A DNA stretch of 64,000 bases from Lingula anatina (Eukaryota > Animalia > Brachiopoda). This document shows, one piece after another, positions 13,852 to 63,955 of the stretch. The notes beneath the pieces are model-generated. The model worked only from the letters and a program-made list of their open reading frames with translations. It was not told the origin of the DNA and made no database searches. The stretch is taken from positions 3,534,001-3,598,000 of the forward strand of contig CM120645.1 of assembly GCA_051362555.1 (NCBI GenBank). Direction: 5' to 3'. A program made the translations under genes and the position numbers. Position 1 is the stretch's first letter. The number at the start of each line of letters is the position of its first letter.

Positions 13852-14066
13852 GAGTGCATTCCCATAGATTTAGATTGATCCATTTAGATCGACCTAACTC
13901 CCAGGGGGTTCACCCTAAATTGCTGTCAGCCAAGCTCGCATGGTAGTTAATTACCCCCTTACAGCTTTTAGAAGGCAGGACAGACATTTAAGCCGGCTAA
14001 GCTAACAGTAATCTTGTGAGACTCCCCACAGCGATAGATCGATCTAAAATCTGTGGGAAGGGGGTC
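13852..14066. mobile_element. MITE family 1 (PIF/Harbinger-like), apparently complete copy
   Basis: Imperfect ~30-bp TIRs (GAGTGCATTCCCATAGATTTAGATTGATC versus the reverse complement of GATCGATCTAAAATCTGTGGGAAGGGGGTC), flanked by TAA on both sides. The right half recurs at 58400-58522. Confidence 0.65.
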
Positions 14067-14248
14067 TAAGCCAAAACACTGACAGAAATTGATGTCATAA
14101 TTATTTTTTGTTGTTATTGTTGTTTTGAGAAATTTCTTGTCTTTGTGCATTTTAGGCAGTGTTTTTAATCTCGCTGTAACAAATTGGGAAGATTAATTGA
14201 GCCTGAAATATTACTTGTGTACAACATAAATGTATTATGCATATGTAC

Positions 14249-23140: not shown

Positions 23141-23475
23141 CTATGATGCTACAGCCTCCACATTGACGCTGTTGTAATTGGGGGATGGGCGGGGAGAGTC
23201 AAAGTACCTTTTGTACTGATGACAGCTGCATGCAATGTCGGAGTCGCACTTGCACCAGTCTGGACTCGTACTGAGGTGGCGCTCAAAGTCCAAGAGCTGA
23301 CCCATGAAGTTAAAGTTCGGTGAAATGTTGGGCTTGCACTTCTTCACATAGTCGTAGGCATCATTGAGAGATAGATGGCAGCGCTGCATGAGGTAGGCGA
23401 CAGTAACGGTGACAGACCTGCTGACTCCGGCCAAGCAATGGACAAGGACGCCACAGCCCTTTTCTCTGGCTTCAT
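23141..23475 (-). CDS. DUSP7: DUSP6/7-like coding exon 3: catalytic signature and C-terminus
   Basis: Acceptor TTTCAG|AT at 23476/23475 gives D-EAREKGCGVLVHCLAGVSRSVTVTVAYLM...ISPNFNFMGQLLDFE, then TAG at 23141-23143. The three exons total 1110 nt = 369 aa plus stop. Confidence 0.96.
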
Positions 23476-26400
23476 CTGAAATAACCAAAGGAACAGGAAC
23501 ATAAACATTGTGGTGGAAGTGGAGAAAAATAAAATCCAAGATACAATTGTTCTTGTTTTTCTAGCAAAGTATCAACAAATAGCACATGTACTTCATTGTT
23601 GTTATGTTTTGACTGAAAATAACCCATCACCACTCACAGTGGATAAACTGTATTGTGTGGTTCAATTTATCTGCGGTCAAAACAAAACCTTAATTCTACC
23701 CAATCACATTAAATCCCATGACCAAATTCATTTGGACCAAAAGACGTCAGAAGCATGGAAAACCCGATTGTTTAAATATTCCCCACGCGACTTTTTTTCC
23801 CTCTTTATCAAAACCACAGAATTCTACTCCCTTTTGATGCAGAGCTAAAGGAGTCCTCATTTCCATTATAGCCAACTGACACGAGTGTTAATAACCATTC
23901 AGAAACATGCACAGACTACAAAAGTGGCTGGAATTAAAATGGACCAGCATAAAACCAGGAAAATAGCTAGGCTGCCGGAAATCACTTAGTTGTAGTGCAC
24001 TGTAAGAGCAAGAGAACCAAAACAACAAGTAATCAAACAGTTTGAGCTTTCAGCGCTATTTAATGGAATTTAACGCACGGCACGATTCCCCGCAAGCAAC
24101 CTCAAAGTGCCCCATGTCTGATGTCACTGAAGGAGACCTAAACGAATCATCATTATCAACCTAAACCATTCACTTGGCGGTCCCGTGGGCATTCAAGCCA
24201 GCAAAACAAAAATCTAACTGAATTATTGAATGGGAAAAAAGGTTGAGCCAGGGAATAAATGGATTAACTAAACATCGAATTGTTCTGCAAATCGGATAGC
24301 TGCAGAATCCATGCACTTAAAATGTTGAAGTGCGTTTGCACCCATTTACATGGTCTAATTTGTGTTACTTAAAAAATCAAACCCAAATTATTGATGAAGT
24401 CCAATGAAAAAAAAAAAGAAGAAGAAAATTATTACATTAACATAAATATCAATAATAAAAATGCTGCAAGACTTCTGAAAAGTACCATTTTTTCTATTTG
24501 GTACTTTCATCACCCACTGGTTCAGTTCATGTCTGCTGAAGAATGGATCCATTTTACTGAGTGTAAACCTTCCTTTCCTGCTGCTGCCCATCTTATGTTG
24601 AGAGTGATAAATGGGATAGGCCGTTTTAATAACAATAATAACCAAAGGGGATGATGATGATTACATCTCCTTAGAATTCCCATTTCCTGTTGTGGACTGC
24701 CCCAAACTGATTAAGTAAAGAACCAGCCTCAAAACTTAGATTTATATATATACTGGTGTGCTACAATGGCTAGGCTGGAGGATTCACAACTTTCAGTTGG
24801 TTTTCCAATTTCACAACTTGAAGAAGTGATATAATTACATAATTAACTAAATTTTAAAAAGGATGAGAGGCTTAAAACCTCCACCTGTGAGGCAAATAAT
24901 CCAGTTTAGCACAGGATAAGAATGAGCTAGTTCTGGGAATTTTTAAGTTAATGACAGAATTCTAAAAAACTTAATGGCTTAATTAAGGATGTGACGTCAA
25001 ATTGGTACAATATAACAGAAATAACAAGCTTCTAATTTTTGACAAATTTGAAGATTTGTGAAAAAAATTGGATTAGCAATGACAACTGCGCAACTGCTCA
25101 GCAAAAGTGACGTTCAGAAACCATGCCACCAAAAGCCACTGCAATTCAATAGGCACTGTTATAAAGTCCATAAAGGTCTCAGTATTATCAAACAATTCAC
25201 TGAAGAAGAAGTAATTTTTTCTCATAGTCAGAGCTGGAGCGTGAACTGATGTGTATTCTACTCCCCTCACCCACACAACTCAAAACTATAGGCCGTGTTT
25301 TCATGTGTCATATCCATACACACAAACCGTTTTATCCAACCTACAAAATACCTTTTACATTAATATTGTGAGTTTCAACATGGGCTGTGAGCAAACACAA
25401 GCTTCCTTTACGCACTCTGCCATGCATTCAAATTGACCTAGCGGATGAATGGCCGCTTTACAAATTTGGTTTGCAAAGCCGAGATGAAAACCTTGTTTTT
25501 CCTCCCGCCTCAAGGGTCAAGGGGCAGGAAATGCATACTTGAGAGGCTGAAAGGCTTGCAGAATGGAGTTTATCAATGCCATACAATTTTGGCAGCCCTC
25601 TATATTGTTGCCCTCGGCACAGAGCTTCTCCACAATGTCCAGGTGGGTTCATTTAATACTAAAGAAATAAGATCCGGGTCAAACATCCCCCATCATCTTA
25701 ACCTGTCACAAACTCTATGAAGATTAATATGATTACTAAGCAATTTTCAGTTGAATTTGGTGTTTGCTTTTTTTTTTTCATCATTCTTCTCACACCTGTT
25801 AGAGAACATTTCTAATCAGATATGTCTGTGGTATTACGTATTTTTTTTTCCTTTTAAGAGGTAAAAATTTGTTTCAGTGAACTTACACATAGAATAGTTC
25901 TTGAATGATATCCAAATGAAAACCAGGCTTAAAAGAACTTTTTTGCCTCACATAAAAAAATGCCCAGAAAGTACTATGGGACTATGCCACATAACCCCAG
26001 CCTGTATTTCATCATAACATTTATATGGCAGTCGCGCACTTTATCCATTTAGGACGTTCTTTGGTTATGCATTGTTGCTTCGATTGTCCTTGGCCCTACT
26101 CTGCTATTCACCAAGATGGATGGTCTCTCGTTCTACTCTCTCTTCCAGCCGACAGCCTACATTAAGTATGTTCAGATGGATGTTCTTAAAAGTAAAATCC
26201 CTTTAGGTCCCAATTTCATCACACCAGATTAATTTGTGTGGTTTTGTATATTTGTGATGCAGGTAGCCATTTCTATATGCAGACAGCATGCCCCAATGGT
26301 TGTAAACATATACCATTTTGCCTTGTACATTTAATTTGATGGTACAGTGGTGACTTCATATAAACCCAAAATGGTTTTGAATTTGAGCTAGTCTAAATTC

Positions 26401-28264
26401 AGTATTAATCTACAGCTTTTATTAGTTTCCCTGTTTTTTTTACTGATAAAAGATTGCTGAAGGAAAAAAAAACTTTGTAACTAATATCCTAAAACAACAG
26501 AGCAGGTTTAAGTTTGTTGGCATTTTGTTTTCAACTTAAACAAGAGGAAGTGAGATTAAGCAGTTGTTTTTTAAGGAAAATTATCTAAGTGTTCACATGT
26601 GGAATACAACCTCCAACATCCAACTTGCTTCAAAACGTTCAACTCTCCCTGAGAAACTCCAAAACAACCATTCACACAAGAAAGTAAATTGTGCCAGACG
26701 TAAAACCTCTGCCAATACATTACTTTCTTCCAGAACCTTCATCTGCATTTCATAAATGCAATAACTCCTTCCAAATCACGCCTGACTTAAAAGTCTGCAC
26801 CTAACATGTGCCACTTGTTTTAACTGGGTAAAACGCTACCAGATTTCTTCCCCTACTTCCCACGGCTGTAGACTCAAATCCTACAGGTGTGTAAAATCTT
26901 TATGCATAAGCCTCAACAGGGCCAAAGATGATTACACAACCAGCACTTGCCATGGATTTCTTACCTGCATTCCCCCCTGAGCACTGGTTCTTAAAGGACC
27001 ACTTCAAAGAGGTATAATCAAGTTGTTACCTACTTGGAACCCCTTCCCCTCCATGTGCATGGAAGACCTACCTATCGCCAGCTATTATTATGGGTCAAAC
27101 AGTGACCAACTGTTCTCTCACTTAAACACCTATAATAATAATACCTGGAAGATCAGGGATTTCCTCCTACACAAAATGTACAGTGCAGACTGAGCTGTAA
27201 GAAAGCCACGACATCATTATAACATCACCATAGCATGTCGTGTAGGGATGATAATTGACTCGCCCACCTTCTTGGACGGATGAAATCAGTTTCAGCATAT
27301 TCCACAGATATATCAGAGGCTGGCTTCACCTCAGGTGAACAGTGAAACCTCTAATTTCTGTATTACCTGTCAAAATTAGGGATCCCTTCAAAAGAAAAAG
27401 TTTTTAGATTTCAGTACGGATTTCAGACGCCATCACGAAAAAAAAAAAAAAGAAAAGAAAACCCGTTACCCCTATCCTAATCTCCTAATCTTACCTGCCA
27501 CACACAATATAACACAGATAAACATAGCTGCAACTTGCGGTTTGTTGGTGGGATGGGAGGTAAACATTGATATACTGATGGGGATTATATGCAATTGGGA
27601 GGGAGAGATGGCTTATGCTATTAGCAAGTGAGTTTGTGGGTATCAGAGAGAGAGAGAGAGAGAGAGAAAAGAACCAAATGAAAACACACTGCCCTATTTC
27701 TACTTATGAAAGACTCCATTGCTCGAAAGTACTGATTTTGTTTTAAAAAAAAAACAGACATTAGCAACACTAAATAAACCTCAGCACTGATGTAATTGGC
27801 TTATGTCTTTCCATATTTGGACATCCTTATTATTCATAAGGAAGGAAGAATTAAGGGCTTCATGACTTAGTTCATCAGATTATCTTAGCAGTAATTAGTC
27901 TGCGGCATCCTGTAATTAAGCCTCCAGGAAGTTGCAGTACGTGCCAGCAATGCTGTGGAGAATTAAGGCCTTAAAAATACCTTTTTTATTAATTTTTCAC
28001 ACATAAATTAAGAAAAAAAGGCAATGGAAAAAGCTGATATTTTTTTATTAACATATAGCATATACAGGCTCAAATCCTTCATATACCATACCATTTTGAA
28101 TGCAAAAAAATAATAATAAATAAATGAAGAGCCCAGTCTATGGGGAATACTAAATATATCGGTTTTCCACACTTTTTTCTGACGTTCCACCTGTTGTGTC
28201 TGGGATAAATGTTTCCATGTTCTGATAAATCATTTTTAAATGGTTGTCTATCAAATATACTTAC

Positions 28265-28651
28265 CAATGAAGGATATTGCTTCAGGGAAATAGACGGACA
28301 AATTCTGGGACCAATGGTCATTTATTGGGATCTGCTTGTACACAATATGTTCATCTTTCTCCCACATATTTGGCAGGTTAGGGGTGACATTCAGGATATA
28401 TTGAATCCCGTGCTTCTTCAAGGCTTCCAAGTCGGCAGAATTCCTTGCATTGCCAAGATAAAGATTGGGAATCACTTCGACAGGTAGCGCGTTGTGAAAT
28501 GGGGTATCCAGCCCTGAGATTTCCCGCGTGCAATTGACATTGTCTCTATCAGACAGCGACAGGTTTCGAAGTCCCATAATAGTACTTGTCTCGTTGTCAT
28601 CGACCCCCTCGCAAAGATCTGGGTACAGCTCTTCGAAGGACTGGAAGCCAC
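28265..28651 (-). CDS. DUSP7: DUSP6/7-like coding exon 2: end of rhodanese domain, linker and start of catalytic domain
   Basis: Acceptor TTTTAG|G at 28652/28651 continues the frame as GGFQSFEELYPDLCE...PVEVIPNLYLG...YILNVTPNLPN...YKQIPINDHWSQNLSVYFPEAISFI. Donor G|GTAAGT at 28264. The exon is 387 nt, so phase 1 is kept. Confidence 0.95.
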
Positions 28652-29590
28652 CTAAAATTTAAATCCCAAAACATGACTCCTGGTAGCCAGGGAAAGGAAA
28701 AATTATATCACCATGGAACTTAAGCTGCCACCTCTCAATCTGAACATTTAGCTCTGTTCCACTTTTTGCTGCCGTGTTGAATTACAGGTTATGGCAAAAT
28801 CAATATAGCAATGCGCCATTCTTGCAAATATATTTTCTAAGACAGCAATATGCTGCAGTTGTACGCGTTTTTAATTTTCTCAATGGTTGTTCATCTTCAA
28901 AGCATTTTTTCTCGGATGGTAAACCGTTATTAAACAATTCAAATAATGAATATAATGATTCATCAATTAACTACCTCTACCCCCCCCCCCCCCCCCAAGT
29001 CTCCTGAGCCTGCGGCACCCGTTTGAATTGTTTAGAGACTATACACTGTTTTGACGGAAATAGATTATCTCGAACATAATAAAAAAATATGTCTCTTGGT
29101 CACAACCTGGCACACAATTTGATTTAAAAGAAGATCTCGCCTGCGGGGATCGAGTGACGTCCTAGTGGTTTATGACCCCTTCGCGAGGCAAATTTTATAA
29201 ACACCGGAAACGTGCCGGCGCTGTGACCGCTGCGATAAGAAAGATCGGGTTTTCGCGTCAGCTATGGATTTTTAAAACGGAAATGTACTCCCAACATTCC
29301 AAAACACCCAGTTGACTTAAACACATGTTGACGTCTAGTCACATTGAACATATCAACGCAGCAACAGTCGCGTTGGAAATCTGGATTCCATTAGCGGTCC
29401 CTACGGTTAAAATTGGCAAGTTTAAAATACATAAAAAGTCGCGGAGCGGACGATTGTGAAATACCATGACGTAGACAAGGAAGACTTAACAGCAAATACT
29501 GAGGTCGCATGATAGCGATTTGAAATCTTAATGTCTCCGGTGATGAATTAGATAAGGCGGTAATGACAACCCACACGATTTTCAACTTAC

Positions 29591-29978
29591 CTTGTAAAAC
29601 CCGTACTTGGCAGCCGTCAACTTTAAGCTTCTTCACGAGTAAGTTAATAATACTGGTCGGATTAGCGTTCAAGTCTTTTGTGTTGTCGTCGTATAATACT
29701 ATCGTGTGTGTTTTACATTTCTTGTTAAACTTCTCCTTTCCTTCATTGCACTGAATAACAGAGGAAACAGACAGGTTGCCCGATTTTAATCGCCGGAGCA
29801 TTAACGTTGGGATGAACAGATTAATGGCCCCTTCGACGTGAGACTGAATAAAGTCATTCTGAGCTCTCAAGTCTAGCACCAGGGCTCCTTCCTCGCTGTT
29901 AAGTCGGCGTCCAAGCCATTCTGGCGTACAGTAGTCAGTCGCACTCATGTTGGCGTTGTCAATGTCGAGGGAAGGCAT
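29591..29978 (-). CDS. DUSP7: Dual-specificity MAP kinase phosphatase (DUSP6/7/9, MKP3-like), coding exon 1: rhodanese/Cdc25-homology domain with kinase-interaction motif
   Basis: ATG at 29978. Translation includes LVLDLR...SHVEGAINL-FIPTLMLRRLKSGNL (KIM; human DUSP6 has IPGIMLRRLQKGNL) and IVLYD. Ends VLQG at donor G|GTAAGT (intron starts 29590, phase 1). The symbol stands for the DUSP6/7/9 pro-orthologue. Confidence 0.93.
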
Positions 29979-30229
29979 TGGAGGTGGAACAAATTTCGGT
30001 AGATTTTCGTGTTACTTGAGTCCTGGTTTAAACGACAGACTGATCGTCTCGTCGTCTCCGTATCGTCGTTTTCCTATTCCAGTTTATATCAGAATAAATA
30101 TACTTCACGTAAATATAGCTTGGTGTCTTAACACTGGCTGGATCGGTCCGAAATTGTAGTCTTAAACACTGATTTTCTTCGGGAACGATCAAGTTCACTT
30201 CAGCCGTGTATATGTTGCCTGTAATGGCG

Positions 30230-53001: not shown

Positions 53002-53652
53002 TTAATTCTTATTTTTCTTCTCATCCCTTTTCTTATTCTCTTGCTCCGTCATCAGTTGTTCAAAATCCCTCCTGAGAAGGGCGTCGTCGTGCTTGGTGGC
53101 GGCATTGTTATGGAGCAACTGAACCAGCGTTTTCCAATCTTCCTCGACGAACGTGCGCACGGTGACGTGCTCGCACCTCCACAACGCGTGCAGCTTCTGC
53201 ACGTGCTCCGGTTTGCGCACGGCGCAATCACAAGGCAGGCCTTTACACGACGGTCGGGAAACCTCATACAAGCCTCTAAACACAATCTCTAAATCAATCG
53301 ACAGCTTCTTCTCGGTTATTATTCTGCTGAAGTTCAAGAACAGGGAGCTGCAGCGGGCGCAGGGGGACCAATTCAAATAAAAACGAATTTTCTGGGGTTT
53401 CAGGCTCTTGATGTTTTTTGCCAGGAAATTCACGGCCTGCTCCTCGGCGTGGCCATCTTGGTTATCATTGAAGATGAAGGAGCGAGGCAACTTCTCCAAC
53501 GTGCACTTGAACACGCAGTAGCTGTCCGTCGGCCAGTTTCGGTCAGGGAAGTGAGGACCGCTCCTTTCAAAAGTGTCCATGATGTCGGTCGCGGATTCGA
53601 AAAGAACAGAGTGCATAGCCATGGCGGTGTCGGCGGCACTCACTGAATTCAT
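53002..53652 (-). CDS. AID/APOBEC-like cytidine deaminase, single domain (gene A, ~216 aa)
   Basis: Motifs GHAEEQA, FYLNWSPCARC, LEIVFRGLY and TFVEEDW. The TTG start in the ORF track (53706) is the first base after a strong acceptor (TCTTCTTTTTGTCCCACAG|). First ATG is at 53652; a strong-Kozak alternative ACCGCCATGG is at 53622. Confidence 0.88.
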   Translation of the reverse strand: MNSVSAADTAMAMHSVLFESATDIMDTFERSGPHFPDRNWPTDSYCVFKCTLEKLPRSFIFNDNQDGHAEEQAVNFLAKNIKSLKPQKIRFYLNWSPCARCSSLFLNFSRIITEKKLSIDLEIVFRGLYEVSRPSCKGLPCDCAVRKPEHVQKLHALWRCEHVTVRTFVEEDWKTLVQLLHNNAATKHDDALLRRDFEQLMTEQENKKRDEKKNKN

Positions 53653-54068
53653 CGGCGTCTTGTTAAATGGGAAATTATGTGATCTGCTTCTGCGTTGTGT
53701 CACCAACTGTGGGACAAAAAGAAGAGGGAAGATGAATTGTTTAACTGCATTTGAAAGAACACTGGATATATTTCCATTCCCTTTTTCACTTTCAAATTCT
53801 TGTCTACGCTTTTGATCAACACGGCGAAACCTTTTGTACGGAAGTTTAAAAAATTGGTAAGAAATTATATAAATTGACTAGTAAATTTTGAAATACTGCT
53901 TTGAAATCACGGTCCTGTGGCACCTGTTTTTTTTTTTTTTTCAAAGCTACCTTCAATACATACACCAAAATAAGTAACTCAAAATCACAAGCAAATTATC
54001 AGACTACTAAAGAAAATTCCATTATGTTTCTGAAGTTATTACAGAGACAAGATTTCACGCCCACTCAC

Positions 54069-54139
54069 CTGAATCAAACAACTCCTCTAAGAAAAATCAA
54101 GATCCTGCTTGCACGGCCTCGGCGCTTGCTCCCCTTATA
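54069..54139 (-). promoter_or_regulatory. Putative TATA box and short non-coding first exon of deaminase gene A
   Basis: TATAAG at 54139-54134, then an ATG-free stretch ending in consensus donor CAG|GTGAGT at 54069/54068, which pairs with the acceptor at 53707. Confidence 0.6.
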
Positions 54140-54786: not shown

Positions 54787-54953
54787 CAGGGACGGATTTA
54801 GGCCGTCTTCTGGGTCTTCCGGAAGACGGTCAGGTTTTCAAGTTAACATTGAGGTGTGTCGTATGTTTTCTGTCAGAAGACGGTCAAAATGGAGGATTAA
54901 TCAACAAAGATAATTTGGGAGACTGTCAGAAAATATCTATAGATCCGCCCCTC
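54787..54953. mobile_element. MITE family 3 (CAGGG.CGGAT / ATCCGCCCCT termini) between gene A and the double-domain gene
   Basis: Imperfect terminal inverted repeats CAGGGACGGATTTA and TAGATCCGCCCCT about 165 bp apart. No clear target-site duplication. Confidence 0.45.
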
Positions 54954-55012
54954 GATGGTGTCTACGAGAAAGAGCCCTTATAACGTCTTTTGCGAGAACA
55001 GTTTTTGAAACG

Positions 55013-55560
55013 CTGACAATGTCTTTACTTCTACCCCAATACCTTCATTCTCACTGACTGGCAGGGCGGAATAGCGGTTGAAATATTAATTCAATATCAA
55101 GCGGAAAGAGAAAATAACATTTTGCGTTTCATTCTTTAATCCTGCCAATACAGAAAAAAATGATACACAAGTTATTCCGTATTATACATTTATTATTCTG
55201 ATAATAATCAAAATCAGCATACATAATGAAATGTGAATCCTTATTTAAAAAATATTTAGAAATATCATTGGAACGTTTTTTTTTTCGCTAGCACGATAAT
55301 GCAGACAATTACAATTAGACACATCATGTGAAACAGCAATTAGATACATCATGTGACAGCAATTAAACACATCATGTCACAGCAATTAAACACATCATGT
55401 GACAGCAATTAGACACAGCAATTATGCACAGCGATTACCTTTAAATACCCAGTTCATTCATCATTCTAATAATAATACCTAACATTGAAATTATGAAATT
55501 CCTATCAAAAAAAGTAATGAACAGATCATTTAAATACAATTTAGATAGATGCACTTATTA
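55013..55560. repeat. Duplicated deaminase 3'-end block (copy 1), containing minus-strand AATAAA at 55189-55194
   Basis: CTGACAATGTCTTTACTT...ATGAAATGTGAATCCTTATTTAAAA...AATATCA recurs at 60115 and 60409. The right boundary is approximate. Confidence 0.85.
55305..55432. repeat. ~22-bp minisatellite (ACAGCAATTARACACATCATGTG), about 4-5 units
   Basis: Directly visible tandem units with no spacers. Confidence 0.85.
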
Positions 55561-55772: not shown

Positions 55773-56007
55773 ATTTTATCTCTTTCTTTCCTTAAAAATG
55801 GCTTTATGCAAGTTCATGTTAGATGTTACCCTAAGATTTTAAAAGAAGTCACCATCTATACTATGTGACAAATGACTGTTTGTTGATGTTCTTTAAATAC
55901 GTTTTCTTTCAGTTAATTTACGCATAATCATCAATTTTTACACCACAACAGTCAAACTGCATGTAGATATCAATACAACCAGCATGGTTTGTAAATACCC
56001 ACTGTGA

Positions 56008-56605
56008 TTACTGATACTGCATCCACCTAAAATCATCAGCAATGTCGCCATCGATGGAATCCCTATGCCATCGCTCGATATTGTCAAACAATCCTTCAAG
56101 ATTCTTCCAATCCTGCCTATTAAAACTTCGCACAGTGCAATAAGGTTCCATACGACTAAGGGCACGCAGTCCTTCGGGGCTCTCATCGACGCAACCGCAA
56201 TGCACCGTGCACGATGGTCTTCTGTTATAGCATATGCCCCTAAAGACGATCTCTAGAAAAAAATCCGGCACAGTTTCCTTCTCCTGTATCAAAGCGATTA
56301 AAGCATTGCTGCAAGCATGGCACGGGGCCCAGTTCAAGTACATGACGATTTTCCCGGTTTTTTGGCGCTTTTGTAGGTAACTTATCGCATGGTTTTCGGC
56401 ATGCATTTCATCAAACCCAGAGGAGGTATGCATACTTTGAAGGTCGTCTTTGCGAAAATGCAGAATAAGATGAGTTCTAGGTTTTGAATTCGGATAAAAA
56501 TGAGGTCCACTGCTTCTAAAGTCATCAAGGATACCTTCAATGTCCCCCGTCATGTATTTCAAGGGTACAAGAGCCCCGTATTGTGTAGGAGGTCTTGCTA
56601 TGTAA
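56008..56605 (-). CDS. AID/APOBEC-like deaminase, C-terminal domain exon of the predicted double-domain gene
   Basis: Acceptor TTCTTTCTTTCATCAG| at 56606. The first base completes GG+T (Gly), then the frame is open as YIARPPTQYGALVPLKYMTGD...SGPH...MHAENHA...MYLNWAPCHAC...LEIVFRGIC...SFNRQDW...IADDFRWMQYQ*. Confidence 0.85.
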
Positions 56606-56803
56606 CTGATGAAAGAAAGAATCTGCGTAGACAGATAAAATATATCTGCACTTTACGTAACTGCAAACTATTTTTTAAAAGCATACTATTAATTGGCTAT
56701 CATCACATGACGACAAGCAATAAGTTCTCTTCCAGTTTACATGTGCCAGGACATATGTAGATATGGATACATAAAACATGGTTTCAACTTTGTAAATACT
56801 TAC

Positions 56804-57498
56804 CCTTTATATTGATTCCTCAAAATCGCTACTAAATCAGTAGCAACTTCTACGTCCATTTCATCATTTGTCGGTTGATCGTGAATACTCAACTCTTCAA
56901 AAGCTTTGTTGGGGTCCTTTTTATCGAGCAATCGTTCAAGATCTTGCCAATCCTTCCTATTAAAACTACGCAAAGTGCAAAAAGGTTCCAATAGGCTGAG
57001 GTTGTACAGTCCCTCGGGATTGCCTGGAGCCGTTTGACATTTGCATTTTTGTGTACAAGATTCTTTTCTAATTTTGTATACGCCCCTAAAGACGATCTCC
57101 AGAAAAAAATCCGGGTCACTTCTTTTTGTCTCTACCAATTTTTTTAACTTGCCGCTGCAAGCACTGCATGGGGACCAATTCAGGTACATGACGACTTTTT
57201 TCACATGTAGGTTTTCTAGGTAAGGTATCGCATTCATTTCGGCGTGGACACCGGTTGTATTGTAGGTATACGGGTCAACGGGTCTACTCCAGGTATACAT
57301 ATCTGGAAGTTCGGCGTTTTCGGGAAAATGCACAATAAGATGAGTTTTACCCGTTGGCCACGGCCTGCCATGTGGCCCACTGTTTGTAAAATCATCCAAG
57401 ATATTTGGGAAGTCTCCCGACACTTCTATTAAAGGTACGACTTTAGACATGACTGGTGTACGTGGCGCTGTCGATAGGTAACTGGTAGAGTAAGCCAT
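56804..57498 (-). CDS. AID/APOBEC-like deaminase, N-terminal domain exon of a predicted double-domain gene
   Basis: ATG at 57498 follows acceptor-like TTCAG|GTGAGAA with an in-frame TGA just upstream. Motifs SGPH, VHAEMNA, MYLNWSPCSAC, LEIVFRGVY, SFNRKDW. Ends AAA GG|GTAAGT (phase-2 donor at 56803). Confidence 0.88.
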
Positions 57499-58399
57499 TT
57501 CTCACCTGAAGTTAAGGGGGGAATAGTTCTACTCAGACAGGTGAATCGTTATCTGTGGTTTAAATGTATATGAAAGAGAATTTGACTAAACTATTTCATG
57601 GTCACCATTACAATACGGCAAAACAGAAAGAGATAAATAAAGAATAAAAAAGATAGGAAGAAAGAAAAAATTAAATGAAAAAACTTTTATTTAGAGGTGA
57701 GCACATACACTGTATAAGTGGGTCGTACTTCTATAAAAAGCAATCAAAAGATAAACATCCCCTATGTATAGTTGCAAAACAGAAAATAGATTTTTAGAAA
57801 ATAGACTTGTCATGTGAACGGGCCTTTATCCCCACTTATAATTTCAGATTGGCTTATCGTAAGGTTTAATTATTGTTCATAATGGATCGGTAGTTTATAA
57901 GTAGAATTGTTTTGAATATCAGGTGATTGGTGCCACCACTCCATGCATAAGTGTACTTATTGGCATATCATGTGTTCTGATAACCTTAAAGTCCAACGCT
58001 ATCAACAAATCAATAAAACTCTATCCGTCCTGAAATACAATCGTCTTGTATACATAAATCATCGGTGAAAATGAACTAGTACGTGTCTGCCCCATTTAAG
58101 TTAATATAGATAAACATGATGCCAGTAAGGACGAAGCATTGAATATCGACATTTTTGTCTTGCAGCTGCGAAACATTTAAAGTGAAGAAGCAGACTGGAC
58201 ACTGGGACGGTTTGATGAAAAAAACAGTATGATTAGATTTTTCCCCTTTTGGACTGTGTGAACGACGTGTCCTGACCTTCATATTTGGGGTCAAGGACTT
58301 CCAATTTTTATAAAAACTAAAACAGTGCCGGAGGCTGAAAAAATTTATGTCCTATAAAGTACAATCTAGACAGTAACTTGTTCCACTTATAACGCACCA

Positions 58400-58522
58400 T
58401 AGTTAATTACCCCCTTACAGCTTTTAGTAGGCGGGACAGACGCTTAAGCCGGCTAAGATGACAGTAATCTAGTGAGACTCCCCACAGGGATAGATCGATC
58501 TTAAATCTGTGGGAATGGGGTC
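58400..58522. mobile_element. MITE family 1, truncated copy abutting the LINE fragment
   Basis: Closely similar to 13944-14066 (TAGTTAATTACCCCCTTACAGCTTTTAG...GATAGATCGATC...TCTGTGGGAA..GGGGTC), followed by TAA. Confidence 0.75.
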
Positions 58523-59085
58523 TAAGACTGAGTTGATGTGGTTTACATCAAGGTTCAAGGCAAATAGGAAAAATGCAACAAACGCCAACATTTGGATAGG
58601 AGATCTTACAAAACCATCTAGTTCTGTAAAAGGTCTGGGATTTACCCTCGATGAAAATAGCACTATGGAGAAGCGTGTTTCTGGAGTGTGTAAATCAGCA
58701 TCTTATGCACTATGGCGCATTGGAAAAATAAGGAAAGTGTTAAATAACCAAACCACTGAAAAATTAGAACATGCATTTATATCATCAAGATTAGATTACT
58801 GCAATAGTCTCCTCTTTGGTATATCAGGTTAAAAATTACAAGTTATTCAAAACTCAGCTGCAAGACTGGTTTGTCAAAGTTACACACCAATATCACTCCC
58901 ATTCTGAAAGGATTGCACTAGCTGCCAGTGAAGCAGAGGATTGATAATAAAGTACTTTGTATTATTTTTAAGGCGATCCATACACAGAGACAAAATTTAT
59001 TTATCTGATCTTATCTGTTTGAACTCACCACGGCGGTCCACACGTTTTCATACTGAGAACGACCTTATTTTAGAACATTCTGTGT
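58523..59085 (+). mobile_element. Decayed 3' fragment of an L2/CR1-clade LINE ORF2 (region C-terminal to the RT core)
   Basis: KTELMWF...VKGLGFTLDEN..M...CKSASYAL.RIGKIRK.L...HAFISSRLDYCNSLLFG, then after stop/frameshifts KLQVIQNSAARLV and LKGLH*LPVKQRIDNK. These match the SRLDYCNSLL / QNxAARL / LHWLPV motifs of L2/CR1 elements. The right boundary is approximate. Confidence 0.88.
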
Positions 59086-59126
59086 TAGAGGGGATCTGAG
59101 AGAAAGAGAGAAAAAGAGGGAGAAAG

Positions 59127-59222
59127 ACTTACATGAAAATTGTGAGAGCCGTCTTTTTTAATATGGAGTCACTTCTTGGTTAGCTTTTGCAACGAGTCAC
59201 TTCCTGGTTAACTTTCGCTTTC
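59127..59222 (-). promoter_or_regulatory. Putative promoter/first exon of the double-domain deaminase with IRF-E/ISRE and duplicated ETS/AP-1-like motifs
   Basis: On the minus strand: GAAAGCGAAAGT (59222-59211), AACCAGGAAGTGACTC (59209-59194), AACCAAGAAGTGACTC (59181-59166), AT-rich TATTAAAAAA, and donor CAT|GTAAGT at 59132. Confidence 0.45.
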
Positions 59223-59339
59223 GTAAGTTTTAGCTGGTACGATCGAGTTGCTTTCATCCGTCCCACTGCGGCAGGTGTTTTCCTTTCCACATGACTGCAT
59301 ACCCCACCTCTCCCCTCTGCAATATGTATAGCTGTCTGG

Positions 59340-59690
59340 GTGGGAGATCTTACAGTGAAAAAATAACACACGGAGCACTATCAAGTTTATTTCGCCGAAT
59401 GCGGAGCCACTTATTAAACATTTCCAGATAACTGAGCCCCTTAGGCTAAATAAAAATGTACCAAAACCGGAAGCAGCCACGTCATTTGGGATTGTGTGAC
59501 ATCTTTTGCAACCAAAACAATAAGTTTGGAAAATGTAACTGGGTTATTTACATTGCGTTAAGATTTCAATAACTAAGACTGCGCTCTCTCCCAGCTTCGC
59601 TATTTTAACCTCGCAATAATTTAGTCGCAATAATTTACTAAACTTAGAAGCCCCTCAACCGACTCTTGAACATTTTTTCTGATAATCCTT
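59340..59690. repeat. Duplicated upstream block (copy 1)
   Basis: AGATCTTACAGTGAA...CACACGGAGCACTATCAA...AGCCACGTCATTTGGGA...CCCCTCAACCGA aligns with 63610-63955. Confidence 0.85.
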
Positions 59691-60099
59691 CTTACTAAAA
59701 ATCGTAATTGAGTGTAATTTTACGATGTGACCACCTTTATCTATTTGTTGCTGTGCACTTCCCTGTAATTGTTACTTGTACGTACAATAAAAGAAACGGT
59801 CCTATGGGACGTCCTATTCTCTTGATAAAATAACCTTCCTAAGGTTCATTAAAATAGATCTCCAGCTTTCTTAGGGTCCATTGCCAAAGACAATATCGGT
59901 CTACGTAGCTCGACCCAACCCTGCGAGGCCTTTCCCTGAATGCAATCAGTTTAACAGGTGAACGCGGGGTTAACAGGCGTTGAGTAGAATACAAAAAAGC
60001 TAGAGATTATCTGATTTACTGAATACACTCCCCAAGAGTCGGATCGATATACATAGATCGATAGTGTCGACGTGAATGAGCCCTTATAGTGCCTTCTGC

Positions 60100-60830
60100 C
60101 AATGACAATGACTTCTGACAATGTCTTTACTTTTACCCTTATACTTTCATTCTCACCGTCTGACAGGGTGGAATGGCGGTTGATATATTACTTCAATATC
60201 AATCGGAAGGAGAAAATGATACTTTGCGTTTTATACTCTAATCCTGCCAATAAAGAATAAATGATACACAAAGTTATTCCGTTAAATACATTTATTATTT
60301 TAATAATAATCAAAATCGGCATACACAGTTACAATGAAATGTGAATCCTTATTTAAAATATATTTAGAAATATCATTGAAAAGTATTTTAACGCAATGAC
60401 AATGACTTCTGACAATGTCTTTACTTTTACCCTTATACTTTCATTCTCACCGTCTGACAGGGTGGAATGGCGGTTGATATATTAATTCAATATCAATCGG
60501 AAGGAGAAAATGATACTTTGCGTTTTATACCCTAATCCTGCCAATAAAGAATAAATGATACACAAAGTTATTTCGTTATATACACTTATTATTCTCATTA
60601 TAAGCAAAATCAGCATACACAATGAAATGTGAATCCTTATTTAAAATATGTAGAAAATATCACTGATACGTGTTTTTTACGTTAAACAAGATTATGCAGA
60701 CGATGACGATTAGATAATGCACAGCGATTGCCTTTTTTACACCCAGTGCATTCAACATAATAATAACAACAACAACAACAACAATAATAATAATAAAGAT
60801 AATAAAATTATCACATTCCTATCAAAATAA
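60100..60830. repeat. Duplicated deaminase 3'-end block (copy 2), containing a 294-bp tandem duplication
   Basis: CAATGACAATGACTTCTGACAATG starts at both 60100 and 60394. The units are nearly identical and homologous to 55013-55275. Confidence 0.9.
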
Positions 60831-61003
60831 TGATTTATATATGATTTATATAATTTATATATGTCGAATATAATCACAGCAGTTCAATAAGAAACGTATA
60901 AGATATGTTTACAAAAAATTTAACATATCATGCCAATAAAAATCCTTTAAAATTACTAGATAAATACATGGTGTTATTAATTATGATATAATTAAATATG
61001 GTA

Positions 61004-61289: not shown

Positions 61290-62096
61290 CTAATACTGAT
61301 GGTGACACATATTCCATTTAAAATCATCAGCAATTATTTTGTCCATCCTATAATTTAAAATCATTAAACATTTCTGCGGACATCAATCAATAAGAGCATT
61401 GTATAAAATTGCCAACCGTTGATCTTGTTCCTATGAAATCCACTAACAATCTTTAAGCAATTTGAAGATGTTGTCTCAGGAATTCCCAATCCTCCTCACC
61501 AAACTGACGCACAGTGCAAGGTTCCAATTGACGGAGATCATCCAGACCCTCACCACCGTAGTACAGGCCACGATACACGATCTCCAGCGAAAACTCCGGG
61601 CCACTTAACTTTGCCAACATGGGGCTACAATCACGGCATGGGGACCAATTCAGGTACATGACGACTTTTGTGACACCTCGGTTCTTTACATCTTGTAGGT
61701 AAGCTCTCGCTCTAACTTCGGCGTGCTTTCCTTGAGGAGTATTGCGGACGTACATAAGATCACCGTTTTGGGGAATATGCAGAATAAGATGAACACGGCT
61801 TGGGGGGTTATGCCCGTTGCTTAGATAACTGTCTTCATAGTCTTCATAGATATTTTGGAACTCATGCGCCACTTCTGACAAAGGTACGACTCCAGCAGGA
61901 ATATCAATAATGCAGTCAAAATATTAAGGATACACATCGCATGCATTAGGGAATTATGAGACATTGCTTTCAAGTTGTGTCGGCCGTATTTGATATACGG
62001 ACTAGTTGGTCCGAGGATCATCAGTTGTGAAGGCAACCTCATTACAGGTCGGAAGAAGGGGGCGGTTCTTGCATGGACATATTTACCAAGTGGCAT
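61290..62096 (-). pseudogene. Fourth AID/APOBEC-like copy (gene D): open catalytic core with disrupted termini; probable pseudogene or truncated paralogue
   Basis: Core 61453-61881 retains KHAEVRA, MYLNWSPCRDC and LEIVYRGLY. The ATG at 62096 (after acceptor TTGCAG|GAA) is out of frame with the core, whose frame is closed upstream by TAA. A homologue of the terminal helix (MDKIIADDFKW, 61346-61290) lies beyond the stop in another frame. Confidence 0.6.
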
Positions 62097-62419
62097 TTCC
62101 TGCAATTTTACAACATTATTAGTTGATTATGTAAAATGATGGTAAACTTGTTATCGTGTATTGTGTAATAAAGTTTCAAAAATGGAAATAAACTCATATC
62201 ATTGCAGTTTGTCAGATTCAATCATTCACTATGTTCAGAATCTCAGAATGGAAGAGATTGGACATTTAACACTGCTCTGTTGATATTTTTCCCATCTCAT
62301 CAATTTTCTTAGTTGATCATATAAAAACGGCAGAAAACTGTTAATTTTGTTTTATGTTAAAAATTGTTAAAAATGGAAAAAAAACATTTCAGAACAGTGC
62401 TGCCTCGTTTACATTTTGG

Positions 62420-63090
62420 CATTTTCAAGTTGTGACTTTGAAGTTCCATGGGCCTGAAGACCTTTGCTAGTCACATTTTCTGAATATCCATTATACTAAT
62501 ATTTTATTATTAAAGTTGATGGTCATTATGCTGTTAAACATTATGTAATATTGCATCAAAATTTGAAAAAAAAACTATTTTGGGCACTGCTCCCATGATG
62601 ACCATTTAAGAAAAACCATGTCATTTACTGTTCTCAAACTTACAGGGAAGAAACATGGGACTAAAACACAGCTTCAGTAGGAAATACAGTCTGTTTGGTA
62701 ATTCTTACTGCCAGTTAAACAGTTATTTTGTGAAAATTTAATTTTTCACATATTGTCATTTTCAAGGTGTGACTTTGAAGTTCCACGGGCTTGAAGACCC
62801 ATGCTAGTCACATTTTCTGAAAATCCATGATACGTATATTTTATTATTAAAAATTGACGGTCATTATGCTGTAAACCATTATGTTATATTGCATCAGAAT
62901 AGAAGAAAACACAATTTTGGGTGCAGCTGCCATGATGACCATTATGGGAAAACCATGTTACTTATGATTGCCAAACTTTCAAAAAAGAAATACAGGACTA
63001 AAATGCAGTCTGAGTTGGAAAAGCAGTCTAAGTGACTTCTTTTTCTGGAAGTTATACATTTTCAAAGTGTAAACTTGTCACATATTTTAA
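62420..63090. repeat. Diverged ~337-bp tandem repeat (two units and a trace of a third)
   Basis: CATTTTCAAG.TGTGACTTTGAAGTTCCA.GGGC.TGAAGACC..TGCTAGTCACATTTTCTGAA at 62420 and 62757; weaker CATTTTCAAAGTGT near 63057. Confidence 0.8.
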
Positions 63091-63609
63091 TTACATAGGT
63101 ATTACCTGTTGAGGATAATTAAAATTTGATGTTGAATTTGCAGTTTAACATAATGTATTTTTGCATCAGAATTGACAGTAGCCTATTTTGTGCATAGTTA
63201 TTTCCTGTCTTTTGTCTGTACATTTGACAGCTTTGCTGCCTTGTTTTTCAATTTCAAGGTAATATTACATGATTCTAACCGCATAATCACCACTAAGTTA
63301 ACATTATGAACTACAGGTAACACCCGTATTTAAAATTGTAACTAGCCTCACGGTTCAGGTCCGTGGAATATCAAAGTCACACAATGAAAAGGAAAATATG
63401 TTTGAAATCCCAGAACTCCAAGATAAAAATTCATATGGGCTGGTTTTGACACAAGGACTGTTATTACTCGTAAGGAACATCTTTGTAATATTGAGAATTA
63501 TAAGTAAAACGTTTTTCCTTTGACGCTGTTTACAGAAAAAGAAGTGCACTGCGACAACTACACATAAAAACGCCAACGATTTTGGCTTTTACGCAGAGCG
63601 GTCGGTTGG

Positions 63610-63955
63610 CAGATCTTATAGTGAATGATATATAGCACACGGAGCGCTATCAACTTTATTTCGCTGAATGCCACACCCCTTGTTAAACATTTACATATAT
63701 ATCTGAGTCTCTTAAGCTAAATAAAATACTATATACCAAAACCGAAAGTAGCCACGTCATTTGGGAAAGTGTGAAATCTTACATAACCAAAACATGAAGA
63801 TTGGGGAGTTTAACTGGGTTATTTCTATTGCGTTAATTTTTCAATAAATAATTCCTCTTTCTCTCTACTTCACTTTTTTAACCTGTACGCTCTTATTTGT
63901 TCAAAAACTGAATTTGGAAACCCCTCAACCGATCTTCGAACATTATTTTGATAAC
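63610..63955. repeat. Duplicated upstream block (copy 2)
   Basis: AGATCTTATAGTGAA...CACACGGAGCGCTATCAA...AGCCACGTCATTTGGGA...CCCCTCAACCGA aligns with 59340-59690. Confidence 0.85.

What the first reader, a model, noticed from the sequence alone, without database searches (positions are those of the whole stretch)
56008..57498. Hidden double-domain AID/APOBEC-like deaminase formed by splicing two apparently separate ORFs
Seen: ORF 57498-56800 ends ...AAA GG|GTAAGT (consensus donor, phase 2). 198 bp on, a strong acceptor (TTCTTTCTTTCATCAG|T) supplies exactly the base needed to enter the frame of ORF 56562-56008. The 14 extra codons are open and resemble the first domain's leader (GALVPLKYMTGD vs SKVVPLIEVSGD). 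The spliced CDS is 695+598 nt = 430 aa with two complete HAE/PCxxC zinc sites. Known: tandem deaminase domains characterise mammalian APOBEC3B/D/F/G, and invertebrate AID/APOBEC-like genes have been described. Inference: this is an independently evolved double-domain architecture in an invertebrate. I cannot confirm it is undescribed.
Basis: partly seen in the sequence, partly recalled or inferred. Interest (0 to 1): 0.88.

Follow-up and report, generated by a model that had tools for sequence, protein, structure and literature searches.

The report
Known two-domain brachiopod deaminase LaAIDL1
The two reading frames are spliced into one two-domain cytidine deaminase, but this is the brachiopod (Lingula) gene AID-like 1 published in 2018, a DNA mutator that likely serves immune defence, so the finding is real but already known.

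Summary
Joining 57498-56804 to 56605-56008 across a 198-nt GT-AG intron gives 430 aa with two HAE/PCxxC sites. Ten RNA reads in 3 of 4 runs span that junction, though they come from a copy mostly 85-95% alike. The product is 94.9% identical to Lingula anatina XP_013401332.1 and 85.6% to the cloned LaAIDL1, AWK77801.1. Liu et al. 2018 (PMC5956068) already report LaAIDL1 as having two tandem deaminase domains like APOBEC3B/D/F/G, show mutator activity in E. coli and test a double active-site mutant; their cloning primers match the window's start and stop. Additions here: a domain tree supports a Lingula-specific duplication independent of APOBEC3 and of an oyster two-domain protein; the intron start resembles the second copy's 3' UTR; the C-terminal domain lacks the loop-7 tyrosine, so the N-terminal domain likely does most catalysis; LaAIDL2 and an unnamed third paralogue flank the gene. 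Verdict: already known, low interest.

The parts
59133..59453 (-). Exon 1 of LaAIDL1, untranslated; donor CAT|GTAAGT after 59133; upstream edge not determined (59453 is only the edge of the covered bin)
   Evidence: 3 X7 reads join this exon to 57505 (table 5c); low depth in X4 and X7 over 59106-59453; coordinates
57506..59132 (-). Intron 1 (1627 nt), acceptor pyrimidine tract + CAG ending at 57506
56804..57505 (-). Exon 2; CDS starts at ATG 57498 (in-frame TGA just upstream); N-terminal deaminase domain, HAE at 57246, PCSAC at 57171, loop-7 Tyr141 at 57078
   Evidence: AlphaFold2 model pLDDT 85, Foldseek to APOBEC3G/3F/AID at E about 1e-8; published forward primer matches 57498-57481 with 1 mismatch
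56606..56803 (-). Intron 2 (198 nt, GT-AG, phase 2); the donor holds an in-frame TAA; its first ~50 nt resemble the 3' UTR behind the second domain; no polyadenylation hexamer among 12 variants scanned
56008..56605 (-). Exon 3 coding part; C-terminal deaminase domain, HAE at 56403, PCHAC at 56325, Cys in place of the loop-7 Tyr at 56232; stop at 56010-56008; reads continue into the 3' UTR to about 55885
   Evidence: published reverse primer matches 56008-56027 exactly
57039..57372 (-). Predicted second zinc site of the N-terminal domain: loop-1 His43 (SGPH) plus loop-7 Cys148/152/154; the same signature is present in the C-terminal domain
   Evidence: signature defined for the lophotrochozoan-echinoderm clade in PMC5889660
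53002..53652 (-). Neighbouring paralogue LaAIDL2 (single domain, 216 aa)
   Evidence: 210 of 216 residues identical to LOC106167175, which Liu et al. name LaAIDL2
61453..61923 (-). Third AID/APOBEC-like ORF of the cluster (HAE, PCRDC intact; lacks the loop-7 Cys insert; no start codon before strand 1); expression untested

Best explanation
The region is an allele of Lingula anatina LaAIDL1, a three-exon gene whose second and third exons each encode an AID/APOBEC-type zinc deaminase domain and are spliced into one 430-residue protein that likely converts cytosine to uracil in single-stranded foreign DNA as an innate defence. Shown here: the splice, the two intact zinc motifs, the fold of the first domain and the identity with LaAIDL1. 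Shown in print (Liu 2018, on a variant 85.6% identical): mutator activity in E. coli that falls when both HxE motifs are changed, and expression enriched in digestive tissue. Inferred: the gene arose by local tandem duplication of a single-domain gene, after which the upstream copy's stop codon and 3' UTR start became a splice donor and the downstream copy's N-terminal codons became an acceptor; the N-terminal domain, which keeps the loop-7 tyrosine that stacks on the target cytosine, likely does most of the catalysis, while the C-terminal domain (Cys or Arg there) is likely weaker or mainly binds nucleic acid. The natural substrate is not known.
For: Open 430-aa splice; 10 junction reads in 3 of 4 runs and low intron depth; 408 of 430 aligned residues identical to XP_013401332.1 and 364 of 425 to AWK77801.1, whose HAE positions 81 and 298 match the paper's mutants H81R/E83Q/H298R/E300Q; both published cloning primers map to the window's start and stop; LaAIDL2 lies 2.4 kb downstream; a transcript assembly in the Krishnan 2018 supplement reads through the junction; domain model matches APOBEC3G/3F and AID structures. 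Origin: domains 47% identical and grouped with the third Lingula copy at 100/98; intron start versus 3' UTR scores 37, reached by 4 of 1000 shuffles and 0 of 1000 random windows, and in register. Division of labour: 90 of 97 relatives have Tyr/Phe/Trp in the loop-7 column (87 Tyr); domain 1 has Tyr, domain 2 Cys, Arg in XP_013401332.1 and Cys in AWK77801.1.
Against: The junction reads are mostly 85-95% alike and carry a 3-nt deletion at 56218 like the one-residue gap of AWK77801.1, so they do not prove splicing of this exact haplotype. The Krishnan supplement lists genomic Lingula domains that differ from XP_013401332.1, so the window could be a close paralogous copy and not the exact assayed locus. 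Activity was measured on the 85.6%-identical variant, not this one; no single-domain mutant was seen in the parts read; the double mutant's drop was significant only in the KanR assay. Domain 2 has a Tyr one residue further on that might take the lost role. The acceptor-side resemblance of non-coding flanks was not significant (119 of 1000 shuffles); only the coding-register alignment suggests it. A constraint holding all LaAIDL1 halves with all mammalian APOBEC3 halves was not rejected (p-AU 0.15). The immune role is inferred by the authors from expression and analogy.
Confidence: 0.9

Rival explanations
1. Modular locus: the double-domain mRNA coexists with a regulated single-domain isoform made by retaining intron 2 (the donor's own TAA ends domain 1 at 233 aa), as artiodactyl A3Z2 and A3Z2-Z3 do.
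For: The donor contains an in-frame stop, so retention yields a complete first domain. Some intron-core depth in X7 (0.8) and X8 (0.28), and X4's only 2 reads are intronic. Precedent: read-through and alternative splicing give A3Z2-Z3 in sheep, cattle and pig (PMC2612020 abstract). Intron reads may be under-counted if the intron diverges more than the exons.
Against: Depth is about equal on both exons and about tenfold or more lower in the intron; none of 12 polyadenylation hexamers lies in the intron; no pile of molecule ends was listed (table 6). Pre-mRNA explains the few intron reads.
Confidence: 0.15
2. Two separate single-domain genes in this haplotype, with the splice sites coincidental or used only in other lineages.
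For: Both ORFs could start on their own Met; the reads come from a divergent copy; the intron looks like a former 3' UTR.
Against: Canonical GT-AG sites in the right phase are in the window itself; the RefSeq model 94.9% identical is joined at the same residues; the ORF was amplified from cDNA with primers spanning both exons; no room or evidence for a first exon of the downstream ORF.
Confidence: 0.02
3. The enzyme edits the animal's own immune genes or transcripts (AID- or APOBEC1-like) and not foreign DNA.
For: Liu et al. raise this because activity in E. coli is lower than that of antiviral APOBECs; Krishnan et al. propose self-mutator roles for some lophotrochozoan members.
Against: Tandem cluster, 15% divergence between conspecific-labelled variants and reported copy-number variation between individuals fit a host-pathogen arms race better than a conserved single-copy self-editor. 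No target is known.
Confidence: 0.2

Closest known systems
LaAIDL1, Lingula anatina AID-like deaminase 1 (XP_013401332.1 / LOC106167165; AWK77801.1; Liu et al. 2018, PMC5956068)
   Same: Same start, stop, junction residues (QYKG/Y) and two HAE/PCxxC sites; 94.9% and 85.6% identity; same neighbour LaAIDL2.
   Different: 22 substitutions and a 2-residue gap against XP_013401332.1: an allele or very close copy. Exon structure, origin of the intron and single-domain roles were not found in the parts of the paper read.
Lophotrochozoan-echinoderm clade of classical AID/APOBEC-like deaminases (Krishnan et al. 2018, PMC5889660, Fig. S10)
   Same: Loop-1 His plus loop-7 Cys insert in both domains; both Lingula domains are rows in that alignment.
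   Different: Most members are single-domain: of the 150 best representative hits only 8 proteins resolved into two full-length domains (LaAIDL1, one oyster, three unnamed, three mammalian APOBEC3), with two more partial cases.
Mammalian double-domain APOBEC3 (A3B/D/F/G; artiodactyl A3Z2-Z3)
   Same: Two tandem zinc deaminase domains; same fold (Foldseek E 5e-9 to APOBEC3G); fusion of neighbouring gene copies by splicing (PMC2612020 abstract).
   Different: About 18% identity; separate clade (100/99) and N-half pairing rejected; one exon per domain; extra predicted zinc insert; predicted catalytic half is N-terminal, whereas in human A3B and A3G it is C-terminal (recalled, not from a call).
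Crassostrea gigas LOC105345037 (441 aa)
   Same: Invertebrate protein with two AID/APOBEC-like domains, both with HAE.
   Different: Its halves form their own clade (99/96) and pairing with the Lingula N-half is rejected (p-AU 2e-4); longer spacing between the two catalytic cysteines.

Membership tests
LaAIDL1 (Lingula anatina) | High sequence identity over the full length to the named protein | tested here: met
   408 of 430 to XP_013401332.1; 364 of 425 to AWK77801.1
LaAIDL1 (Lingula anatina) | Two tandem deaminase domains in one spliced mRNA | tested here: met
   10 junction reads in 3 of 4 runs, from a divergent copy; two PF08210 stretches in both database proteins
LaAIDL1 (Lingula anatina) | Published cloning primers bound the same ORF | tested here: met
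   Gene-matching parts hit 57498-57481 (1 mismatch) and 56008-56027 (0 mismatches), once each in the window; chance expectation 0
LaAIDL1 (Lingula anatina) | Same locus, not a near-identical paralogous copy | tested here: inconclusive
   LaAIDL2 is adjacent, but no genome is held and the Krishnan supplement shows further divergent Lingula domains
AID/APOBEC-like deaminases | HxE and PCxxC zinc-binding motif | tested here: met
   HAE 85 / PCSAC 110 and HAE 300 / PCHAC 326
AID/APOBEC-like deaminases | AID/APOBEC fold with five-stranded sheet and helix 4 before strand 5 | tested here: met
   Domain 1 model pLDDT 85.4, five core strands; all 41 listed Foldseek rows are APOBEC3 or AID chains. Domain 2 was not modelled alone; the Atlas model of XP_013401332.1 aligns its residues 248-432 to an APOBEC1-like model at TM 0.80
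AID/APOBEC-like deaminases | Aromatic residue in loop 7 that restricts the pocket to cytosine | tested here: inconclusive
   Met in domain 1 (Tyr141); domain 2 has Cys in that column with Tyr one residue on
AID/APOBEC-like deaminases | Polynucleotide cytosine deaminase activity | not testable with these tools
   Reported for AWK77801.1-type LaAIDL1 in E. coli KanR and rpoB assays
Lophotrochozoan-echinoderm clade (Krishnan 2018) | Loop-1 His plus three loop-7 Cys/His residues forming a second metal site | tested here: met
   SGPH at 40 and 264; SCxxxCxC at 147 and 363; metal binding itself not tested
Mammalian double-domain APOBEC3 | Descent from the APOBEC3 Z1/Z2/Z3 domains or from the same duplication | tested here: not met
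   APOBEC3 rows form their own clade 100/99; Lingula N-halves with APOBEC3 N-type halves rejected, p-AU 5e-15. A looser grouping of all halves was not rejected, p-AU 0.15. Only 3 mammalian proteins were in the tree

The most novel reading that the evidence does not exclude
LaAIDL1 is a recent gene fusion caught with its seams visible: a tandem duplicate whose stop codon and 3' UTR were turned into a splice donor, giving a double-domain mutator with an N-terminal catalytic and a C-terminal binding half (the mirror of APOBEC3G), one of several independent invertebrate inventions of the double-domain design, beside an unnamed third, intact Lingula paralogue at 61.5-62.1 kb.
Probability: 0.4. Interest if true: 0.33.

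Novelty: already known. Interest (0 to 1): 0.12.

Why it matters
The main claim was published in 2018 with cloning, expression and enzyme data, so it adds little. The leftover value is evolutionary and practical: the locus shows how a double-domain deaminase can arise from two adjacent copies without new exons, the tree suggests that brachiopods, oysters and mammals reached this design separately, and single-domain mutants (not found in the text read) would show whether the two halves split catalysis and binding as APOBEC3 halves do.

Tried and rejected
No whole genome is held, so copy number and synteny beyond the window were not checked. The look-up of sequencing runs listed no RNA holder by indexed words; the nine runs came by species label. 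First lay at 93% likeness on 55800-60990 listed no 56605^56804 joint in 4 of 4 runs; it was dominated by two repeats at 57.8 and 58.4 kb. Five of the nine runs were laid on the junction at either setting plus X1 and X3 only at 93% (X1, X3, X4, X7; X4, X7, X8, X9); X2, X5 and X6 were never laid. AlphaFold2 of full-length XP_013401332.1 on a 2-row alignment failed (pLDDT 28.9) and was discarded, so domain packing is unmodelled. The first tree had the LaAIDL2 row out of frame and was redone; trees used 65 rows: 45 single-domain hits of the 150, 8 two-domain proteins split in halves, 4 window domains; partial two-domain hits P0090 and P0113 and near-copies were left out. A longer three- or four-domain read-through was considered and rejected: the upstream ORF and domain 2 end in their own stops, and exon 1 of LaAIDL1 lies between the upstream ORF and exon 2. 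The alternative acceptor CGCAG at 56623 runs into a stop (read). No resemblance between the intron and the sequence behind the third paralogue (275 of 1000 shuffles). Word-indexed homologue searches reached only the Lingula proteins. The search of earlier findings had nothing for this genome.

Full report
Observation. The minus strand carries two ORFs, 57498-56800 and 56652-56008, each with HAE and PCxxC. Joining 57498-56804 (695 nt) to 56605-56008 (598 nt) removes a 198-nt GT-AG intron in phase 2 and gives 430 residues with a single terminal stop. Each half passes the Pfam cut-off for APOBEC_N.

RNA evidence. Nine RNA runs were offered by species label, none as an indexed holder. At 93% likeness, four runs gave no listed junction; X1 and X3 had no reads on the ORFs, but three X7 reads joined an upstream exon ending at 59133 to an acceptor at 57506. 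At 85% likeness the joint 56605^56804 appeared in 6, 3, 1 and 0 reads of X7, X8, X9 and X4, with 4 further X8 reads ending loose at 56804 in exon-3-like letters. Depth was 3.7-8.1 on the flanking exon bins and 0-0.8 in the intron core. X4's two reads lie in the intron. Most reads are 85-95% alike and share a 3-nt deletion at 56218 with the cloned variant described below, so they show splicing in a divergent allele, lineage or paralogue, not in this haplotype.

Identity. A search among longer proteins returned 2 hits of 914 candidates, both Lingula anatina: XP_013401332.1 (LOC106167165, 432 aa) and AWK77801.1, 'AID-like deaminase 1' (427 aa). The spliced product is 94.9% and 85.6% identical to them, with the same junction residues. 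Liu et al. [quoted passage not shown] Those residue numbers match AWK77801.1, and the gene-matching parts of their primers hit the window's start and stop. Krishnan et al. 2018 (PMC5889660; passages, section 12, supplement passages and part 35) note the Lingula cluster, place both domains in a lophotrochozoan-echinoderm clade with a second metal site from loops 1 and 7, and show a transcript assembly that reads through the junction. Their Fig. S23 on Lingula paralogues could not be seen (file cut) and may bear on the third paralogue. The term 'LaAIDL1' occurs in 1 paper of the library; a wider search listed no follow-up by title among 20 of 41 hits.

Anatomy and mechanism. The gene has an untranslated exon 1, and one exon per domain. 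Domain 1 models well on a 101-row alignment (pLDDT 85.4, pTM 0.85) and matches APOBEC3G, APOBEC3F and AID structures at E about 1e-8. By established AID/APOBEC chemistry the His and two Cys hold zinc and the Glu shuttles protons for hydrolytic deamination of cytosine. Both domains keep these four residues and the predicted second zinc signature. They differ at the loop-7 aromatic that Krishnan et al. describe as stacking on the target cytosine: 90 of 97 relatives have Tyr, Phe or Trp in that column (87 Tyr; 6 His, 1 Glu); domain 1 has Tyr141, domain 2 has Cys, and Arg or Cys in the two database variants. I infer that domain 1 does most catalysis and domain 2 is weaker or mainly binds; a Tyr one residue on could compensate, and I found no single-domain mutant in the text read. 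The natural target is unknown; defence against foreign DNA is the authors' and my preferred reading.

Origin. The two domains are 47% identical. In a 65-row tree (LG+G4) they group with the third Lingula ORF at 100/98; the three mammalian APOBEC3 proteins form a separate clade (100/99) and the halves of an oyster two-domain protein another (99/96). Pairing the Lingula N-halves with APOBEC3 N-type halves or with the oyster N-half is rejected (p-AU 5e-15 and 2e-4); holding all LaAIDL1 and APOBEC3 halves together is not (p-AU 0.15). So a shared two-domain ancestor is rejected, while the deeper relation is unresolved. The DNA keeps the seam: the intron start aligns in register with the 3' UTR behind domain 2 (score reached by 4 of 1000 shuffles, 0 of 1000 random windows), and the acceptor aligns with the first codons of domain 1 in the full alignment, though that flank alone was not significant (119 of 1000). 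This fits a tandem duplication fused by new splice sites, like the read-through A3Z2-Z3 of artiodactyls (PMC2612020, abstract only). Other two-domain relatives exist: Crassostrea gigas LOC105345037 and three unnamed proteins with one degenerate half.

Surroundings. ORF 53652-53002 is LaAIDL2 (210 of 216). ORF 61923-61453 is a third paralogue with intact catalytic motifs, no loop-7 insert and a plausible start mini-exon at 62099-62087; it was not returned as a protein by the alignment search (1 hit among 1230 candidates) or among the 150 representatives, and the Atlas does not hold it exactly. Its flanks repeat those of LaAIDL1. Its expression was not tested.

Verdict. Observation confirmed; interpretation right on structure and independent origin, wrong on novelty. 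Already known; interest 0.12. The most novel reading left (visible fusion seam, mirror-image division of labour, repeated invertebrate origins, unnamed third paralogue) has probability about 0.4 and would deserve about 0.33.

Noticed in passing
window 61453-61923 (-), with candidate mini-exon 62099-62087: Third AID/APOBEC-like ORF, sister to the two LaAIDL1 domains, with HAE and PCRDC intact, an Asn after strand 2, no loop-7 Cys insert. A phase-1 mini-exon with ATG could splice to an AG before 61874 or 61889. Not found as a named protein. Intact gene or pseudogene is open.
   Followed up: partly
window 53002-53652 (-): LaAIDL2, 97% identical to LOC106167175; candidate upstream donor near 54070 and acceptor near 53707 read from the sequence.
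   Followed up: partly
window 57320: Four X7 reads join the end of exon 1 directly to 57320, inside domain 1 (loose ends). This would skip the start codon and the first strand of domain 1. The window has CG, not AG, there, so it may be specific to the reads' allele.
   Followed up: partly
window 63597-63954 vs 59330-59685; 60058-60389 vs 54952-55281; 60394-60676 vs 60100-60389; 62745-63029 vs 62408-62692: Duplicated non-coding flanks (76-92% identity) that outline tandem units around the third paralogue and LaAIDL1.
   Followed up: partly
window 56003-55998 (-): A weak donor-like GTGGGT behind the domain-2 stop sits at the place homologous to the intron-2 donor, in the same phase; no joint from it was listed.
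   Followed up: partly
window 55820-57619: RNA reads under the same species label are mostly only 85-95% alike to the window, and the two database LaAIDL1 proteins are 84.5% identical to each other: very high polymorphism, cryptic lineages or paralogous copies.
   Followed up: no
window 23144-30011 (-): Exons of a dual-specificity MAP kinase phosphatase (rhodanese plus DSPc domains), DUSP6/7-like by recalled resemblance.
   Followed up: partly
window 58400-58526 and 57780-57822; 58494-58832 (+): Short high-copy repeats inside intron 1 that attract thousands of partial RNA reads; 58400-58526 has a 92% copy at 13944-14070. The adjacent 112-aa ORF looks like a LINE reverse-transcriptase tail by recalled resemblance; not tested.
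   Followed up: no
P0164 (Crassostrea gigas LOC105345037), P0014, P0017, P0018: Further two-domain AID/APOBEC-like proteins outside vertebrates or unnamed; three have one degenerate half.
   Followed up: partly
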